From IMG/VR virus record IMGVR_UViG_3300014625_000039: DNA of 6,245 nt; one strand, written 5' to 3'. Below are positions 1-6,245 of this stretch, piece after piece. The position numbers were made by a program, and so were the translations under genes. The DNA is from a virus (taxonomy: Duplodnaviria > Heunggongvirae > Uroviricota > Caudoviricetes). Under the pieces are notes generated by a model, which searched no databases, was not told the DNA's origin, and worked only from the letters and a program-made list of their open reading frames with translations. Position 1 is the first letter of the stretch, and every line of letters begins with the position of its first letter.

Positions 1-44
1 ATAAAACCGGGTGATGCAAAAGTAGCCATTTGATTCACAAGGCC

Positions 45-73
45 ATTGACGCATCGCCCGGTTAGTTTTAACC
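45..73 (+). promoter_or_regulatory. Possible sigma70 promoter for the tRNA gene (-35 TTGACG 45-50, 17-bp spacer, -10 TAACCT 68-73)
   Basis: Hexamers read directly from the sequence; the -35 is near consensus and the -10 is weak. Position is appropriate for a transcript with a short leader before the tRNA at 115. Not validated. Confidence 0.25.
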
Positions 74-114
74 TTGTCCACCGTGATTCACGTTCGTGAA
101 CATGTCCTTTCAGG

Positions 115-190
115 GCCGATATAGCTCAGTTGGTAGAGCAGCGCATTCGTAATGCGAAGGTCGTAGGTTCGACTCCTATTATCGGCACCA
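115..190 (+). tRNA. thrW: tRNA-Thr, anticodon CGU
   Basis: Folded by hand into a 76-nt cloverleaf: acceptor stem GCCGATA(115-121)/TATCGGC(180-186), D-stem GCTC/GAGC, anticodon loop TTCGTAA with CGT at 148-150, T-loop TTCGACT, discriminator A and encoded CCA (188-190). Anticodon CGU reads ACG (Thr). The symbol is by analogy to enterobacterial thrW, a known phage integration target. Confidence 0.9.
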
Positions 191-204
191 TTTAAATCAA
201 GTAG

Positions 205-1368
205 TTACACATCATTAGTACCTTCCTTATTTTTTGACTGGGACAAATTTGGGACCGATGGGTTCAGGATCGAGTCTATTTGCCGTGCGTGTTCTGTAAG
301 GTGATTAGGTGCAAGGTGAGCATATCGACGAACCATTTCGATAGACTCCCAGCCTCCCATTTCCTGTAACACTGACAACGGGACTCCGGCTTGAACCAGC
401 CAACTTGCCCAGGTGTGTCTCAAGTCGTGAAATCTGAAATCATCAATACCAGCCCGTCTCAGCGCCGCTTTCCAGGCTGTGTTTGCGTCATACCGCATCT
501 TCCTTACTGTTGGCGCTTTCGTTCCGTCTGGTTTGGTACAGCTTTCCTTGTACACAAATACCCAACGGTGATGATTCCCGATTTGTTTTTTCAAAACGCG
601 ACATGCAGTATCATTCAGCGCAACGCCGATTGCGCGGTTTGATTTACTCTCTTCCGGGTTTATCCATGCCACCCGGCGCTGCATATCTATTTGTTGCCAT
701 TCAAGGTTGATGATGTTCGAGCGTCTTAAGCCTGTTGCCAGTGCAAATTCAACAACAGACTTTAATGGCTCTGGACATTCATCAATCAGCCTTTGTGCTT
801 CATGGGGCTCCAGCCAGCGGATCCGTTTATTCTTTGGTTGAGGCACTTTAATAATTGGTGCCTTATCCAGCATTTTCCATTCACGCTCTGCGGCTCTTAG
901 TAGGGCCTTTATAAATGAAAGATGCGTAGCCTTCGTTGCAACGGACGCTGGTTTTGGCGTGTATTCTGGAACAGGTTTCCCTTTTTTTCTGCATGCTTCT
1001 GCCCTGAGTTTCCAGTTTTCCTCATGACGCCGGTTCGTCATTTTCTGCATTGCTGAATAAATTTTTGATTCAGTAATGTCTCTTAGTTGCATTCCTGCGA
1101 AATGTTGAAGCCAGAATCCGATCCGGCTTTTGTCATCGTCCAGTGATTTTTTATGTGCTTTCTCTTCAAGCCACCTGACACACGCTTCCTCGAACGTTAT
1201 ATCAGGTATTTCACCAAGTTTGCTGACCCGCCATGCTTCAGCCTTTAGCTTGTCATGGAGTTCTGTCGCCTGCCTTTTGTCCTTTGTTCCAAGAGACTGT
1301 TTAAATCTTTTACCGTTCGGCAATGTGAAACTGGCGTACCATATTTCACCTCTGCGGAAGAGTGACAT
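205..1368 (-). CDS. int: Site-specific tyrosine integrase, P22 Int-like
   Basis: 387-aa ORF with ATG at 1368-1366 preceded by AGGA. The C-terminal catalytic region [39 protein letters not shown] carries the R..H..R..Y tyrosine-recombinase signature. The N-terminus [24 protein letters not shown] closely matches my recollection of phage P22 Int, which also integrates at thrW. Confidence 0.93.
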
Positions 1369-1595
1369 TTTCTTTCCTCTGTTATGCCATCACCCGCGCT
1401 CACCTGGACAGTATGCAGCGGAGACTGAAGAGCCGCAATGCAGGCTTGTCGTGTTGTGAGGTAAGGAGATTTATTCTTAGTGGGATCTTTGCGTGTTGCC
1501 TGAAGACGCCCTGTGCGTATCCAGTTAATGGCAGTCGGTCTGGATATCTTGAGAAAATGACAGGCCTCATCGAGTGTGAGGCTGTATGGCTCCAT
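1245..1595 (-). CDS. xis: Excisionase (Xis), P22-like, with helix-turn-helix
   Basis: Start taken at the internal Met (ATG 1595-1593) preceded by GAGGTG, not at the 144-aa maximal ORF start. The 116-aa product begins [31 protein letters not shown], a Xis/AlpA-type DNA-binding motif. Its 3-prime end overlaps the int 5-prime end by 124 nt in another frame. Confidence 0.8.
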
Positions 1596-1900
1596 TATTT
1601 CACCTCTTGCTGTGACATTGTTGAAAAATGGATACCAGCTCGTTGCTGCCAGACGATCCAACCGAGAGTCATATCCCATGCCATGTATTCGTTATCGCCG
1701 TTTTTTGCTCTCCGACGATCTACTAAGTCACCGAAACGCTTTTCCATGAATAATTCATAAGCTTCGCGTTCATCTGGTTCTACTTCCAGCGATAGGAGTG
1801 CGATTTCATAAGCACGGCGCTCAATATCGTCTCGCACGTCAAGGCTGCTGATACGCTCTTTAATTTCTTTAATCAGTTCTTTGTCGGTAAAAGTGATCAT
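1595..1900 (-). CDS. Hypothetical small acidic phage protein (101 aa), function unknown
   Basis: Complete ORF; its stop overlaps the xis start as TAATG, and its own start overlaps the upstream gene stop in the same way. GGAGG lies about 10 nt upstream of the ATG. Rich in Asp/Glu; no motif I can name. Confidence 0.6.
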   Translation of the reverse strand: MITFTDKELIKEIKERISSLDVRDDIERRAYEIALLSLEVEPDEREAYELFMEKRFGDLVDRRRAKNGDNEYMAWDMTLGWIVWQQRAGIHFSTMSQQEVK

Positions 1901-2262
1901 TATGCTCCAGCCTCCGGTGCTTTTGGCATTATTGCCCAGTGAGTGATATTGACGTTTTCAAGGTCCCCGACCTGAAATGTCCACTGCCATTCTCCGGTTT
2001 CTTTTTGTCCCCAGGTGTACCAGAGAGAACGCCAGCCAATTAGCCAGCCTTCTCCGTTAGCATCGAATAACAAAACACTTTCATTTGCTGGTGGCAGTTC
2101 AGTTGACACTGGTATTACTTTGTTTTCCTGTGCTGCACATTTAGCTTCAAGCGCATCGAATTTACGCACCAGGTATTCAGCATCTGTTTCATTCACTTTC
2201 AGATCTCGCGGTACACATCTCCCACGAAGAAACCCTTCCATTTCGAAAACATTCATGCGCAT
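1900..2262 (-). CDS. DUF551-like phage protein (120 aa)
   Basis: The C-terminal half (GEGWLIGWRSLWYTWGQKETGEWQWTFQVGDLENVNITHWAIMPKAPE) shows the Trp-rich pattern ending in THW..P..PE that I associate with the phage DUF551 family. TAATG-coupled to the downstream gene. Start codon uncertain (ATG at 2262 or 2256, no clear SD). Confidence 0.65.
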   Translation of the reverse strand: MRMNVFEMEGFLRGRCVPRDLKVNETDAEYLVRKFDALEAKCAAQENKVIPVSTELPPANESVLLFDANGEGWLIGWRSLWYTWGQKETGEWQWTFQVGDLENVNITHWAIMPKAPEAGA

Positions 2263-2287
2263 TTGCGTATCAAAGTGGCTGTTGCGG

Positions 2288-2560
2288 ATGATGATTGTGC
2301 TTCACGTCATGTGCCTGCTGCCGCTGCTGACCGGTTGCGGAAGTACGCGAACAGTTTACGTACCGATTCCGGCGGTACCGTTGCCAGCAAGCCTGACTAC
2401 TGAAACTCCCCAGCCAGTCATTCCCGAGCCGCTGACCTATGGGGCCAGTCTGGATCTGAATGTGAGCCTGCTTTCGGCGTTGGGACAATGCAATATTGAC
2501 AAAGCGGGGATTCGAAGTATCGAGATGCGCCGTAACGCTTTGCTGGCAGCAGTCAAATAG
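2288..2560 (+). CDS. Putative outer-membrane lipoprotein, proline-rich, Rz1/o-spanin-like (about 90 aa)
   Basis: N-terminus MMIVLHVMCLLPLLTGC is a hydrophobic signal peptide ending in the lipobox LLTG|C, followed by a Pro-rich segment (VYVPIPAVPLPASLTTETPQPVIPEP) and a later Cys. An alternative start at ATG 2255 would add a basic n-region (MRICVSKWLLR). No clear SD at either start. Confidence 0.45.
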   Translation: MMIVLHVMCLLPLLTGCGSTRTVYVPIPAVPLPASLTTETPQPVIPEPLTYGASLDLNVSLLSALGQCNIDKAGIRSIEMRRNALLAAVK

Positions 2561-2586
2561 TCCGGACAAAGAACAGGAATATATTT

Positions 2587-2937
2587 ATGCCCCCTCGAAC
2601 TCCAAAAGCCTGCCGCGTTCGCGGCTGCCGTAATACCACGACAGACCCGTCAGGCTACTGCGAAAGCCACAAAAGCGAAGGCTGGAAGCAATACAAGTCA
2701 GGACAATCCCGTCATCAGCGCGGTTATGGTTCTAAGTGGGATGTTATCCGTGTGCGTGTGCTGCAACGTGACAAAGGCCTGTGTCAGTTATGTCTGCGTG
2801 CTGGTGTGGCGCGTGAAGCGAAAACCGTTGATCACATCATCCCTAAAGCACATGGCGGCACTGATGCCGACAGTAATCTGCAGAGTCTGTGCTGGCCGTG
2901 TCATAAGGCGAAGACGGCCCGTGAACGGCTTAAGTGA
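2587..2937 (+). CDS. HNH endonuclease (terminase-associated type)
   Basis: 116-aa ORF with AGGA 8 nt upstream of the ATG. Cys pairs (CRVRGC, CQLC, CWPC) and the HNH core DHIIPKAHGG...N...H are present. Its position immediately upstream of terS/terL is typical of HK97-like packaging modules. Confidence 0.85.
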   Translation: MPPRTPKACRVRGCRNTTTDPSGYCESHKSEGWKQYKSGQSRHQRGYGSKWDVIRVRVLQRDKGLCQLCLRAGVAREAKTVDHIIPKAHGGTDADSNLQSLCWPCHKAKTARERLK

Positions 2938-3062
2938 TAATAACTCTCAACTGTCTGAGGGGAGGGGCGGGTCAAATCTCTGTGACCTGACGTCTTCCGG
3001 ACTGCCCGCCCCATCGTTTTTTTATACCCGCGAAAAATGAAATTTAACCAGGAGTGCCGCAT
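2938..3062. promoter_or_regulatory. Intergenic region between HNH and terS: candidate cos / packaging-initiation site
   Basis: 125-bp non-coding gap exactly where HK97-like phages place cos (between the HNH gene and terS). It contains the G-rich run GAGGGGAGGGGCGGG and an 8-bp inverted repeat GGGGCGGG (2964-2971) / CCCGCCCC (3005-3012). Assignment is by position and composition only. Confidence 0.35.
2964..3023 (+). terminator. Possible intrinsic terminator-like hairpin with T-run (alternative reading of the cos-region repeat)
   Basis: GC stem GGGGCGGG/CCCGCCCC followed 4 nt later by TTTTTTT (3017-3023). The 33-nt loop is long for a classical terminator, so this is weak. Confidence 0.3.
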
Positions 3063-3557
3063 ATGGCTGGAACGGCGGGGCGTTCCGGGCGTCGCCCCAA
3101 GCCAACGGCGCGCAAGGCGCTGGCCGGAAACCCCGGCAAGCGAGCCCTGAACAAAGATGAACCTGTTTTTACGCCCATCAAAGGCGTTGAGCCACCGGAG
3201 TGGTTCGCAGAAGAAAATCTCCCTCTCGCCACGATCATGTGGCAACTGACAACCAAAGAACTCTGCGGTCAGGGCCTGTTGTGCGTGACTGACCTCGCGG
3301 TGCTTGAGCGGTGGTGCGTGGCCTATGAGTTCTGGCGACGTGCCGTGAAAAATATTGCCATACAGGGCAACACCATCACCGGTGCAATGGGCGGCAGGGT
3401 CAAAAATCCGGAGCTGACCGCCAAAAAAGAACAGGAGTCCGAGATGAGCAGCACGGGGGCAATGCTCGGACTCGACCCCAGCAGCCGCCAGCGTCTGATT
3501 GGCCTGGCGGGGCAGAAGAAAGCCACTAACCCGTTTCTGAAAATCATCGAGTCATGA
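3063..3557 (+). CDS. terS: Terminase small subunit (P27/HK97-like family)
   Basis: Start chosen at ATG 3063, with AGGAG 8 nt upstream; the ORF track's upstream start at 3054 is GTG. The basic N-terminus ([29 protein letters not shown]) and overall length fit P27-type small terminases. Its stop overlaps the terL start (ATGA at 3554-3557). Confidence 0.8.
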
Positions 3558-5287
3558 GCCGGAAATCTTACCCCAACGTAAATGCTGCCAATCAGTATGC
3601 CCGTGATGTTGTGCGCGGAAAGATTGTGGCCTGCCAGTTTGTGATTCAGGCCTGCCAGCGCCATCTTGATGACCTGATGGCGGAAAAAAGTAAGTCGTTT
3701 CGTTACCGCTTCGACAAGGACCTGGCTGAACGGGCCGCCAAATTTATTCAGCTGTTGCCGCACACCAAGGGTGAGTGGGCATTCAAGAGGATGCCCATCA
3801 CGCTGGAGCCGTGGCAGCTATTTGTGGTCTGCTGTGCGTTTGGCTGGGTCAATAAAGGGTCCCGGCTGCGCCGCTTCCGGGAGGTGTATACCGAAATCCC
3901 CCGTAAGAACGGCAAATCGGCAATCTCTGCCGGTGTTGCCCTGTATTGTTTTGCCTGTGATAACGAGTTTGGCGCGGAAGTGTATTCCGGTGCCACGACA
4001 GAGAAACAGGCGTGGGAAGTCTTTCGCCCGGCGCGACTGATGTGTAAACGCACACCCATGCTGACGGAAGCGTTCGGGATTGAGGTTAACGCCTCAAACA
4101 TGAATCGTCCGGAGGATGGCGCGCGGTTTGAACCGCTGATCGGTAACCCCGGTGATGGTTCATCACCCCACTGTGCGGTGGTGGATGAATATCACGAGCA
4201 CGCCACCGATGCGCTTTACACCACGATGCTTACCGGGATGGGGGCGCGACGTCAGCCACTGATGTGGGCCATTACTACTGCCGGGTACAACATTGAGGGG
4301 CCGTGCTACGACAAGCGACGGGAAGTTATCGAGATGCTCAACGGGTCGGTACCCAACGATGAACTGTTCGGGATCATCTATACCGTTGACGAAGGCGATG
4401 ACTGGACCGACCCGCAGGTGCTGGAAAAAGCTAACCCGAATATTGGCGTGTCGGTTTATCGCGAATTTTTGTTAAGTCAGCAGCAGCGTGCGAAAAATAA
4501 CGCCCGTCTGGCAAACGTCTTTAAAACAAAACACCTCAATATCTGGGTGTCGGCGCGTTCGGCGTATTTCAACCTGGTGAGCTGGCAGAGCTGCGAGGAT
4601 AAATCACTGACCCTTGAGCAGTTCGAGGGGCAGCCGTGCATTCTGGCCTTTGACCTGGCGCGTAAACTGGATATGAACAGCATGGCGCGACTTTATACCC
4701 GCGAGATTGACGGTAAAACGCATTACTACAGTGTGGCCCCGCGTTTCTGGGTACCGTATGACACGGTGTACAGCGTCGAGAAAAATGAAGATCTACGGAC
4801 AGCCGAACGCTTTCAGAAATGGGTGGAAATGGGCGTTCTGACCGTTACCGATGGTGCGGAAGTGGATTATCGCTACATCCTCGAGGAGGCTAAAGCGGCG
4901 AACAAAATCAGCCCGGTCAGTGAGTCACCCATCGACCCCTTCGGGGCGACCGGGCTGTCACATGACCTTGCTGATGAAGACCTGAACCCCATCACTATCA
5001 TTCAGAACTACACCAACATGTCCGATCCGATGAAAGAGCTGGAAGCGGCAATTGAATCGGGGCGCTTTCATCATGATGGCAATCCCATCATGACCTGGTG
5101 TATCGGCAACGTGGTCGGCAAAACCATTCCGGGTAACGATGATGTGGTGAAGCCCGTCAAAGAGCAGGCGGAAAACAAAATCGATGGTGCAGTTGCGCTG
5201 ATTATGGCGGTTGGCAGAGCCATGCTGTACGAGAAAGAAGACACGCTGTCTGACCACATTGAGTCCTATGGGATCCGCTCGCTTTAA
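3554..5287 (+). CDS. terL: Terminase large subunit (HK97-like Terminase_1 family)
   Basis: 577-aa ORF with a deviant Walker A (EIPRKNGKS) in the N-terminal ATPase region and an acidic-residue-rich C-terminal nuclease-like region. Translationally coupled to terS. Confidence 0.93.
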
Positions 5288-5298
5288 CTGAGGTAATT

Positions 5299-5481
5299 AT
5301 GATCATGCTGATTCTCGCGCCTCTGGTGGGCGTGCTGGGGGCGCTTTTGCTGGCGTATGGTGCCTGGCTGATTTATCCCCCGGCGGGGTTTGTTGTTGCC
5401 GGGGCGTTGTGCCTGTTCTGGTCGTGGCTGGTGGCGCGATATCTCGACCGTACACAGTCGTCTGTCGGCGGAGGTAAATAG
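5299..5481 (+). CDS. Small membrane protein, two predicted transmembrane helices (60 aa); function unknown
   Basis: GAGG lies 5 nt upstream of ATG 5299. Sequence [60 protein letters not shown] has two hydrophobic segments separated by a YPP turn and a polar C-terminal tail. Its stop TAG overlaps the GTG start of the portal gene. Confidence 0.5.
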
Positions 5482-6245
5482 TGTTCTTTTCGGGATTATT
5501 TCAACGAAAAAGTGTCGCACCAGTGACCACGCCAGCAGAGCTGGCGGATGCTATCGGGTTGTCCTACGACACCTATACCGGAAAGCAGATCAGCAGCCAG
5601 CGGGCCATGCGACTGACGGCGGTTTTTTCCTGCGTCAGGGTGCTGGCAGAGTCGGTCGGGATGTTGCCCTGCAATCTGTATCACCTGAACGGCAGCCTGA
5701 AAAAGAGAGCCACCGGCGAGCGTCTGCATAAGCTGATCTCCACGCATCCCAATGGCTATATGACGCCGCAGGAGTTCTGGGAGCTGGTGGTCACCTGTCT
5801 GTGCTTGCGGGGAAACTTTTACGCCTACAAAGTGAAAGCATTTGGCGAAGTGGCTGAACTGCTGCCCGTCGATCCCGGCTGTGTGGTACCGAAGCTTAAC
5901 AGTAGCTGGGAGCCGGTCTATCAGGTCACATTCCCGGACGGCTCCACGGATGTACTGAGCCAGGAAGATATCTGGCATGTGCGCACGCTGACGCTGGACG
6001 GTCTGGTGGGACTGAATCCCATCGCCTATGCCCGCGAGGCAATATCGCTGGCAGCTGCGACCGAAGAGCACGGGGCCAGACTGTTCAGCAATGGTGCGGT
6101 GACGTCCGGTGTGTTGCGTACAGAGCAGACGCTGTCGGATCAGGCTTATGAGCGCCTGAAGAAAGATTTTGAGGAGCGTCACACCGGGCTTGGCAATGCT
6201 CACCGCCCGATGATCCTTGAGATGGGGCTGGACTGGAAGTCGATG
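5481..6245 (+). CDS. Portal protein, HK97 family, N-terminal 255 codons (3-prime end beyond window)
   Basis: Not in the ORF track because it is open to the window end. Hand translation from GTG 5481 (GGAGG 7 nt upstream) gives [104 protein letters not shown]..., uninterrupted to position 6245. This resembles HK97-type portal N-termini and sits in the expected place after terL. Confidence 0.85.
   Translation, partial: MFFSGLFQRKSVAPVTTPAELADAIGLSYDTYTGKQISSQRAMRLTAVFSCVRVLAESVGMLPCNLYHLNGSLKKRATGERLHKLISTHPNGYMTPQEFWELVVTCLCLRGNFYAYKVKAFGEVAELLPVDPGCVVPKLNSSWEPVYQVTFPDGSTDVLSQEDIWHVRTLTLDGLVGLNPIAYAREAISLAAATEEHGARLFSNGAVTSGVLRTEQTLSDQAYERLKKDFEERHTGLGNAHRPMILEMGLDWKSM

What the first reader, a model, noticed from the sequence alone, without database searches (positions are those of the whole stretch)
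115..1595. tRNA-Thr(CGU) used as attachment site by a P22-type integrase/excisionase pair
The int stop lies 15 bp past the tRNA CCA end and int is transcribed toward the tRNA, the classic attL arrangement in which the element restores the tRNA 3-prime end. The int and xis products look intact, with no internal stops, so the element may still be excision-competent. The int and xis reading frames overlap by 124 nt.
Basis: partly seen in the sequence, partly recalled or inferred. Interest (0 to 1): 0.45.

Follow-up and report, generated by a model that had tools for sequence, protein, structure and literature searches.

The report
Prophage remnant attL at tRNA-Thr gene
This is the textbook left junction of a P22/Shigella-SfIV-type prophage inserted in the E. 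coli threonine tRNA gene thrW, with intact integrase and excisionase genes, but the prophage behind it is a 16-kb deletion remnant; it is ordinary and already well described.

Summary
tRNA-Thr(CGU) lies at 115-190. A 387-aa integrase gene (205-1368, minus strand) converges on it, and 14 bases separate the CCA end from the int stop codon. A 116-aa excisionase gene (1245-1595, minus strand) overlaps int by 124 nt, exactly as in phage P22.

Phage homology starts at base 145. Bases 145-190 are the published 46-bp attP/attB core of P22, SfI, SfII, SfIV and SfV. Int and Xis match those of the inducible Shigella phage SfIV at every residue, and are 90% and 87% identical to P22 Int and Xis.

I located the source contig (100% identical to the window) and found the predicted attR. 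It is a second perfect 46-bp core 16,361 bp downstream, preceded by an SfIV-like P arm and followed by host genes.

The element is nevertheless a wreck. One 13.4-kb deletion (junction at window 2268/2269) removed immunity, replication, antitermination and most lysis genes. A second deletion of about 10.9 kb removed most head and tail genes.

Excision is structurally possible, but the native promoters are gone and no phage can be made. About 20% of complete E. coli genomes carry this int-xis module at thrW. It is already known and of low interest.

The parts
115..190 (+). thrW, tRNA-Thr(CGU), complete gene. Its last 46 bases are supplied by the element.
   Evidence: ARAGORN; Rfam RF00005, 71.8 bits; annotated tRNA-Thr next to proA in ET474 and EC11.
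145..190 (.). attL core: the 46-bp identity segment shared by attP and attB (ATTCGTAATGCGAAGGTCGTAGGTTCGACTCCTATTATCGGCACCA).
   Evidence: Phage homology begins exactly at 145. The core is 100% identical to the P22 and SfIV attP cores and identical to the published SfI/SfII/SfV/SfX/P22 core (PMC3636060). A second perfect copy lies at extended coordinate 16506-16551 of the source contig.
191..264 (.). P' arm of attL, with tandem TGGGAC repeats at 239-244 and 250-255. These are putative arm-type Int sites and lie inside the 3' end of the int coding sequence.
   Evidence: TGGGACNNNNNTGGGAC occurs once in the window (0.02 expected). The same tandem motif sits 49 nt after the core in P22 and SfIV. 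Assignment as Int arm sites is inferred, not tested.
205..1368 (-). int, a 387-aa tyrosine integrase transcribed toward the tRNA.
   Evidence: ORF; PF00589 at 3.2e-48; 348/387 residues identical to P22 Int with no gaps; no residue differs from SfIV Int. Catalytic R215, K242, H314, R317, W340 and Y349 are present. A Shine-Dalgarno sequence GAGGA precedes ATG 1368.
1245..1595 (-). xis, a 116-aa excisionase (recombination directionality factor). It overlaps int by 124 nt (1245-1368).
   Evidence: HTH_17 at 1.6e-8; 101/116 residues identical to P22 Xis; no residue differs from the SfIV sequence; same 124-nt overlap as annotated in P22.
1595..1900 (-). 101-aa early-left gene (YfdT-like). Its stop codon overlaps the xis ATG by one base.
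   Evidence: ORF; annotated yfdT in ET474 and EC11; homologue of SfIV gp30.
1900..2262 (-). 120-aa early-left gene (weak DUF551 match). It is the last gene before the deletion junction.
   Evidence: ORF; PF04448 at 3.6e-4, below the curated cutoff; homologue of SfIV gp31.
2268..2269 (.). Junction of a deletion of about 13.4 kb, with 2-bp TA microhomology. It joins the 3' end of the yfdR-like gene to the codon for residue 85 of the 130-residue i-spanin.
   Evidence: Left homology to SfIV ends at 2269 (SfIV 25322) and right homology begins at 2268 (SfIV 38763). Base-by-base comparison with undeleted parents L004 and L015. All E. coli prophage hits to the right part start exactly at 2268.
2263..2403 (+). 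Remnant of the Rz/LysB-type i-spanin gene. Only the last 46 codons remain and the transmembrane N-terminus is lost.
   Evidence: Its translation matches the C-terminus of the 130-aa DUF2570 protein of LZYWN_4.
2288..2560 (+). lysC/Rz1-type o-spanin lipoprotein gene, intact.
   Evidence: PF23793 LysC at 9.3e-18.
2587..2937 (+). HNH endonuclease gene of the packaging module.
   Evidence: PF01844 at 5.4e-16.
3003..3012 (.). cos cohesive-end sequence TGCCCGCCCC.
   Evidence: Identical to the 10-nt SfI cohesive end determined experimentally (PMC3636060). The linear SfIV, SfI and SfII records begin at window 2996, 3014 and 2938 respectively.
3063..6245 (+). Packaging and head genes: terS (3063-3557), terL (3554-5287), ymfR (5299-5481), and portal (5481 onward, cut by the window end).
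   Evidence: Pfam Terminase_4, TerL_ATPase/TerL_nuclease and Phage_portal; 96.9% nt identity to SfIV 1-3250.

Best explanation
The window holds the left end (attL) of a defective prophage. The phage belonged to the SfIV/SfV/SfII-like group: HK97-type head, Mu/e14-type contractile tail, and a P22-type integration module.

How it arose. Its heterobivalent tyrosine integrase recombined the 46-bp core of attP with the identical 3' end of the tRNA-Thr(CGU) gene thrW, just downstream of proA. The phage copy of the core therefore now completes the tRNA. The int gene converges on the tRNA from 14 bases away, and the other core copy (attR) lies at the far end.

What remains of the recombination module. 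In the source genome the module is complete: Int, Xis, attL with its P' arm, and attR with its P arm 16,361 bp away.

What was lost. Two illegitimate-recombination deletions removed about 24 kb. The first took the left-operon promoter, repressor, replication, antiterminator, holin and endolysin genes. The second took most capsid and tail genes.

What is shown and what is inferred. Shown: the sequence anatomy, the identities, both att sites and both deletion junctions. Inferred: Int plus Xis plus host IHF could still excise the 16.4-kb remnant as a circle. Such excision should be rare or depend on a related co-resident phage, because the native promoters and activators for xis and int are gone. 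No virions can be made.
For: tRNA and ORFs.

Phage homology starts at base 145 and is 99.4% identical to SfIV and 80.7% to P22.

The 46-bp core is identical to the P22 and SfIV attP cores and to the published core.

Int is 90% and Xis 87% identical to the P22 proteins over their full length. Both match the SfIV proteins at every residue.

The catalytic residues are present.

The 124-nt overlap equals the P22 annotation.

The window is 100% identical to contig DADCJX010000001.1 of GCA_016663885.1.

attR is a perfect second core at extended coordinate 16506-16551. It is preceded by about 125 bp that are about 97% identical to the SfIV P arm and followed by host yagQRST-yagU genes.

Deletion junctions are documented.

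Full-length relative EC11 has the same int-xis (100% nt) and cores 40,054 bp apart.

1100 of 5426 complete E. coli genomes carry thrW plus this module at 80% coverage or more.
Against: Nothing contradicts the attL reading.

Against actual excision activity: the consensus scan found no sigma-70-like promoter on the minus strand anywhere in 1-3100. The region that would hold the left-operon promoter and the cII/C1-type activator is deleted. The scan is crude, and activator-dependent int promoters are weak matches by nature. No expression or junction-read data were available.
Confidence: 0.93

Rival explanations
1. The module is a fossil. Int and Xis are intact by recency of the deletions only. 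They are transcriptionally silent, and the remnant is effectively fixed in the chromosome and never excises on its own.
For: No promoter-like site was found on the minus strand in 1-3100. The deletion removed everything upstream of the 120-aa gene, including any left-operon promoter and activator genes. The first gene of the remaining leftward operon lost its upstream coupling partner and has no Shine-Dalgarno sequence. The deletion arrangement was seen in one assembly only, which suggests a recent event with little time for int/xis to decay.
Against: Int and Xis match those of an inducible phage at every residue. Both att sites are perfect. Low-level readthrough, or activation in trans by related resident prophages, cannot be excluded from sequence.
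Confidence: 0.4
2. It is a complete, inducible temperate phage whose left end happens to lie in the window.
For: Intact int, xis, packaging genes and cos site lie in the window.
Against: The distance between att cores is only 16,361 bp, against about 40 kb in EC11 and 39.8 kb for SfIV. Repressor, replication, Q, holin, endolysin, major capsid, sheath, tube and tape-measure genes are absent. The i-spanin, capsid and baseplate-J genes are truncated at the junctions.
Confidence: 0.01
3. It is a satellite-like element (a capsid-forming-PICI-style parasite) that purposely keeps int-xis plus HNH-TerS-TerL-portal-protease and cos, and borrows the rest from a helper phage.
For: The retained gene set (int, xis, cos, HNH, terS, terL, portal, protease) superficially resembles a packaging-competent satellite. 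Size is 16.4 kb.
Against: Both internal junctions cut through genes with 2-4 bp microhomology, which is typical of accidental deletion. There is no replication or helper-sensing module and no major capsid gene. The arrangement is found in a single assembly: none of the 5426 complete E. coli genomes carries the junction. ET474 is the only one that covers 80% or more of the window, and it has a different, IS1-containing structure. Flanking sequence is 97-100% identical to ordinary full-length prophages.
Confidence: 0.02

Closest known systems
Shigella flexneri temperate phages SfIV, SfV, SfII and SfI (thrW-integrating myoviruses)
   Same: The int-xis-attP region is 97-99.5% identical in nucleotides. 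Int and Xis match the SfIV proteins at every residue. The 46-bp core is the same, and integration is at thrW next to proA (PMC3636060, PMC3851460). The cos sequence and the HNH-terS-terL-portal genes are the same (about 97% nt).
   Different: There are no gtrABC serotype-conversion genes next to attR. The source carries a different four-gene cargo block there. About 24 kb of the phage genome is deleted. The lysis-cassette remnant is only 82% identical to SfIV and 98% identical to E. coli prophages.
Salmonella phage P22 Int/Xis/attP
   Same: Int (387 aa) and Xis (116 aa) have the same lengths. Identity is 90% and 87% with no gaps. The 124-nt int/xis overlap is the same. The 46-bp core is identical. 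The tandem TGGGAC repeats sit at the same offset in the P' arm.
   Different: Nucleotide identity is only 80.7%. The rest of the phage is unrelated: P22 is a headful-packaging podovirus, whereas this is a cos-packaging, HK97-head, contractile-tail phage.
Lambda Int/Xis paradigm and tRNA-integrating prophages with a convergent integrase-tRNA arrangement (e.g. thrW-intH of E. coli EDL933, the 'OC' shape in PMC2951348)
   Same: It has a heterobivalent tyrosine integrase plus a small HTH directionality factor. xis lies upstream of and overlaps int. int is transcribed toward the att core, so its promoter lies away from attL.
   Different: The overlap is 124 nt rather than lambda's roughly 20 nt (the lambda figure is from my own knowledge). 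The core is a 46-bp tRNA 3' end rather than lambda's 15-bp intergenic core (also from my own knowledge).
Full-length E. coli thrW prophages (e.g. strain EC11, NZ_CP027255)
   Same: 100% nt identity over window 1-2269. The gene order of the retained parts is the same, and the attL/attR cores are the same.
   Different: EC11 keeps the roughly 40-kb genome, whereas the source keeps 16.4 kb.

Membership tests
Tyrosine recombinase, P22/lambda-type phage integrase | C-terminal catalytic domain with the R-K-H-R-(H/W)-Y residues | tested here: met
   PF00589 at 3.2e-48 over residues 184-355. R215, K242, H314, R317, W340 and Y349 were located by motif and agree with the alignments to HP1 integrase and XerC-like structures. 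P22 Int has the same residues.
Tyrosine recombinase, P22/lambda-type phage integrase | N-terminal arm-binding domain with matching arm-type sites flanking the core (heterobivalent binding) | tested here: inconclusive
   Only a sub-threshold Pfam hit covers residues 3-44 (DUF6538, 20.8 bits against a cutoff of 27). The N-terminal 60 residues are 56/60 identical to P22 Int. Tandem TGGGAC repeats lie in the P' arm (window 239-255), and three TG(G/A)GAC motifs lie in the P arm at attR, conserved in P22 and SfIV. Binding was not tested.
Excisionase / recombination directionality factor (P22 Xis type) | Small HTH protein encoded immediately upstream of, and overlapping, int; homologous to a characterised Xis | tested here: met
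   HTH_17 at 1.6e-8. 87% identical to P22 Xis over 116/116 residues. Matches SfIV Xis at every residue. The 124-nt overlap is as in P22.
tRNA-inserted prophage (attL/attR bounded element at thrW) | [quoted passage not shown] | tested here: met
   Phage homology begins at 145, inside the tRNA. The tRNA is still complete and scores normally.
tRNA-inserted prophage (attL/attR bounded element at thrW) | A second direct copy of the core at the other end (attR), flanked by the phage P arm on the inside and host DNA on the outside | tested here: met
   A perfect 46-bp copy lies at L028 12899-12944, which is 16,361 bp downstream in the same contig. It is preceded by SfIV-like P-arm sequence (96.8% over 189 bp including the core). 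It is followed by a LysR-fragment gene, yagQRST, yagU and ecp genes.
tRNA-inserted prophage (attL/attR bounded element at thrW) | Actual excision and integration activity | not testable with these tools
   This needs PCR or read evidence for attB/attP junctions, or in vitro recombination.
Serotype-converting Sf phages | A gtrA-gtrB-gtr(type) O-antigen modification cluster directly next to attP on the side away from int | tested here: not met
   In the source contig the genes next to attR are a 439-aa protein, a 200-aa integrase-domain protein, a 331-aa protein and a DUF4145 protein. No gtr genes are present. The SfIV gtr genes at 20408-22996 have no match in the extended source sequence.
Functional temperate phage | Complete immunity, replication, lysis and morphogenesis modules | tested here: not met
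   SfIV 25323-38762 and 4697-15611 have no counterpart in the source. The gene lists of L020 and L028 lack repressor, replication, Q, holin, endolysin, capsid, sheath, tube and tape-measure genes.
Phage satellite (PICI / capsid-forming PICI) | Own replication and helper-sensing module, a conserved compact architecture shared by many strains, and (for cf-PICI) its own capsid gene | tested here: not met
   None of these genes is present. The arrangement is seen in a single assembly. The junctions cut through genes.

The most novel reading that the evidence does not exclude
The 16.4-kb remnant keeps a perfect recombination module (Int, Xis, attL, attR) together with cos, HNH, TerS, TerL, portal and protease. 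It could therefore behave as an accidental satellite. A superinfecting or co-resident SfV/e14-like phage would switch on or complement excision, and the excised circle (or multimers of it) would be packaged through its own cos site. That would spread the cargo block next to attR.
Probability: 0.05. Interest if true: 0.35.

Novelty: already known. Interest (0 to 1): 0.08.

Why it matters
It matters little beyond annotation.

- The junction, the 46-bp core, the int/xis overlap and the thrW target were all described for P22 and the Shigella Sf phages decades ago.
- About one in five complete E. coli genomes shows the same module at thrW.
- The useful practical outcome is a precise annotation for this genome. 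It gives attL (window 145-190), attR (16,361 bp downstream) and two deletion junctions.
- The element should be scored as a defective prophage remnant, not as an inducible phage.

Tried and rejected
1. An exact search of the species-representative genome collection for the 63-base deletion junction gave 0 hits. The source is not a species representative.

2. I tried walking the source contig outward with a homologue search on the GIY-YIG protein and on the 331-aa protein. In both cases the cluster representative differed from the source protein (99% identity; one residue for the 331-aa protein).
   - The route that worked was listing of cluster members, which gave the exact protein id P0241, followed by the look-up of encoding contigs.

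3. The first 12.2 kb and then 15.3 kb of the source contig held no second core copy. I did not conclude 'no attR', because the near-identical FY10 prophage predicted it at extended coordinate 16,506. That is where it was then found.

4. The promoter scan found nothing on the int/xis strand. I treat this as weak negative evidence only.

5. The Rfam scan found only the tRNA.

6. The satellite (cf-PICI) reading and the intact-phage reading were considered and rejected, as set out under the rival explanations.

7. The 144-aa mechanical xis ORF (to 1679) was rejected in favour of the 116-aa form. The reasons are the Shine-Dalgarno sequence before ATG 1595, the one-base stop/start overlap with the upstream gene, and the P22 annotation.

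Full report
**Observation.**
ARAGORN finds one tRNA in the window, tRNA-Thr with anticodon CGT, at 115-190 on the + strand. Rfam's tRNA model agrees at 71.8 bits.

The ORF list gives a 387-aa ORF at 205-1368 on the minus strand. A second minus-strand ORF ends at 1245. Read from ATG 1595, it encodes 116 aa. Pfam assigns Phage_integrase (3.2e-48) to the first ORF and the excisionase-type HTH_17 domain (1.6e-8) to the second.

The int stop codon TAA occupies 205-207, and 14 bases (191-204) separate it from the CCA end. The two frames overlap by 124 nt.

**Is it more than chance, and what kind is it?**
Megablast against phage records shows that homology to phages begins at window base 145, inside the tRNA. 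It runs through int and xis at 99.5% identity to Shigella phage SfIV, 99.0% to SfV, 98.5% to SfII, 97.2% to SfI and 80.7% to Salmonella phage P22.

Bases 145-190 are 100% identical to the attP cores of P22 and SfIV. They are letter for letter the 46-base core that Sun et al. determined experimentally for SfI. Those authors report the same core for SfII, SfV, SfX and P22 (PMC3636060; PMC3851460).

At the protein level:

- Int is 348/387 residues identical to P22 Int with no gaps.
- Xis is 101/116 residues identical to P22 Xis.
- Both match the Int and Xis of SfIV, a phage that was induced and characterised, at every residue.
- The catalytic residues R215, K242, H314, R317, W340 and Y349 are in place.

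The 124-nt overlap is not a peculiarity of this window. The curated P22 record has int at 21353-22516 and xis at 22393-22743, which gives the same 124 nt.

Both starts have good ribosome-binding sequences: GAGGA before ATG 1368 and AGAGGTGA before ATG 1595. The xis ATG overlaps the stop codon of the upstream gene by one base.

Tandem TGGGAC repeats at 239-255 (0.02 expected by chance) sit 49 nt after the core, exactly as in P22 and SfIV. I read them as the P' arm-type Int sites. This is inference supported by conservation, not a binding test.

**Surroundings.**
Upstream of the tRNA is the proA-thrW spacer. Beyond xis lie two small early-left genes: a YfdT-like gene of 101 aa and a DUF551-like gene of 120 aa.

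At 2268/2269 the sequence then jumps into the end of the lysis cassette. Homology to SfIV ends at SfIV 25322 and resumes at SfIV 38763. Base-by-base comparison with undeleted relatives shows a clean junction with two bases (TA) of microhomology.

The junction leaves only the last 46 codons of the 130-aa Rz/LysB-type i-spanin gene, followed by these intact features:

- the LysC o-spanin gene;
- the HNH endonuclease gene;
- the cos sequence TGCCCGCCCC (3003-3012; PMC3636060);
- terS, terL and ymfR;
- the start of the portal gene.

About 13.4 kb is gone. Judged against the SfIV and EC11 gene maps, this covers the rest of the early-left operon, the repressor and regulator genes, replication, the antiterminator, the holin and the endolysin.

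**Source and far end.**
An exact-protein look-up with the 120-aa ORF returned a 510-kb contig, DADCJX010000001.1 of assembly GCA_016663885.1. It is 100% identical to all 6245 bases of the window.

Walking along this contig showed three things.

1. A second deletion joins the major capsid gene to the baseplate-J gene (SfIV 4696 to 15612, about 10.9 kb; 4-bp microhomology).
2. What follows is a tail-fibre/Pin invertase remnant, a GIY-YIG gene and a four-gene cargo block.
3. A second perfect copy of the 46-bp core lies at extended window coordinate 16506-16551.

That second core is preceded by about 125 bp that are about 97% identical to the SfIV P arm, including three TG(G/A)GAC motifs. It is followed by host genes: a LysR fragment, yagQRST, yagU, ykgJ and ecpED.

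The element is therefore bounded by attL and attR 16,361 bp apart.

Relatives show the undamaged state. Strain EC11 has the same int-xis (100% over window 1-2269) and cores 40,054 bp apart. Strain FY10 has an intact morphogenesis region and the same attR, followed by the vat pathogenicity island. That island is known to sit at thrW (PMC6956023).

**Mechanism.**

- *Shown:* the anatomy of a completed Int-mediated attP x attB exchange at thrW; intact trans-acting genes; both cis sites; and two later deletions.
- *From established knowledge of lambda/P22-type systems:* Int with host IHF carries out integration, and Int plus Xis plus IHF carry out excision between attL and attR. Transcription of xis and int normally comes from the early-left promoter and an activator-dependent int promoter (summarised in PMC2951348).
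- *Inferred:* the remnant can in principle still excise as a 16.4-kb circle. The promoter region and activator genes are deleted, however, and a consensus scan finds no sigma-70-like site on the int strand in 1-3100. Excision is therefore expected to be rare, or dependent on a related resident or incoming phage. No particles can be produced from this element alone.

I put about 0.4 on the stricter rival that it is transcriptionally silent and effectively fixed.

**Comparison with the known, and novelty.**
This is a member of a thoroughly described kind: the P22/Sf-phage integration module at thrW. It meets all the sequence-testable membership features of a tRNA-inserted prophage, a tyrosine integrase and a P22-type Xis.

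It does not meet the defining feature of the serotype-converting Sf phages, because there are no gtr genes at attR. It is also not a functional phage or a satellite.

The module at thrW is present at 80% coverage or more in 1100 of 5426 complete E. coli genomes. The particular double-deleted form was seen in one assembly only.

**Verdict.**
The caveat is that 'excision-competent' applies to the recombination parts only, inside a degraded prophage.

- Novelty: already known.
- Interest: about 0.08.
- Most novel reading not excluded: the remnant acts as an accidental cos-bearing satellite mobilised by related phages. I put its probability at about 0.05, and it would be of modest interest if true.

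Noticed in passing
window 2263-2403 and junction 2268/2269: A deletion of about 13.4 kb with 2-bp (TA) microhomology joins the 3' end of a yfdR-like gene to the codon for residue 85 of the 130-residue i-spanin. It leaves an intact o-spanin (LysC, 2288-2560) without its partner. All early, regulatory and lysis functions are gone.
   Followed up: yes
source contig L028 4081-4084 (extended window coordinate 7688-7691): A second internal deletion of about 10.9 kb fuses the major capsid gene to the baseplate-J gene with 4-bp (GGTG) microhomology. It removes head-completion, sheath, tube, tape-measure and most baseplate genes.
   Followed up: yes
source contig L028 7735-12498 (extended 11342-16105); also L026, L030, L031, L033: A four-gene block sits next to attR: a 439-aa protein, a 200-aa Phage_integrase-domain protein, a 331-aa protein and a 449-aa DUF4145/AF_1680 protein. 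It recurs with identical order in unrelated contexts, including other lambdoid prophages and next to Tn3/IS elements. It looks like a self-contained mobile or defence-like cassette.
   Followed up: no
window 2950-3013: The experimentally defined SfI cohesive end TGCCCGCCCC lies at 3003-3012, inside a GC-rich inverted repeat (GGGGCGGG ... CCCGCCCC). The HNH endonuclease gene is directly upstream and terS downstream, which is the usual HK97-type HNH-assisted cos packaging layout.
   Followed up: partly
L014 (FY10) 39157-39332; L025 (EC11) 40283-41709: thrW is a tandem-integration hotspot. FY10 keeps a 176-bp scar 91% identical to window 188-362 (CCA plus int 3' end) next to yagU, beyond the vat island. 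EC11 has a P4-like element with its own integrase immediately after the prophage attR.
   Followed up: partly
extended coordinate 9000-9389 (L020 15210-15599): This 390-bp segment is inverted relative to FY10 and lies next to a Pin/Gin-type invertase gene. It is the invertible tail-fibre segment, caught in the other orientation.
   Followed up: no
window 1323-1368: RefSeq (PGAP) annotates the identical integrase in EC11 and ET474 as 372 aa, starting at the equivalent of window 1323. The P22 and SfIV annotations, and the GAGGA ribosome-binding sequence before ATG 1368, favour 387 aa. With the shorter call the int/xis overlap would be 79 nt instead of 124.
   Followed up: partly
window 191-208 versus L028 12945-12962: 15 of the 18 bases after the CCA are the same on the phage side of attL and the host side of attR. 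The att identity therefore continues imperfectly beyond the 46-bp core.
   Followed up: no
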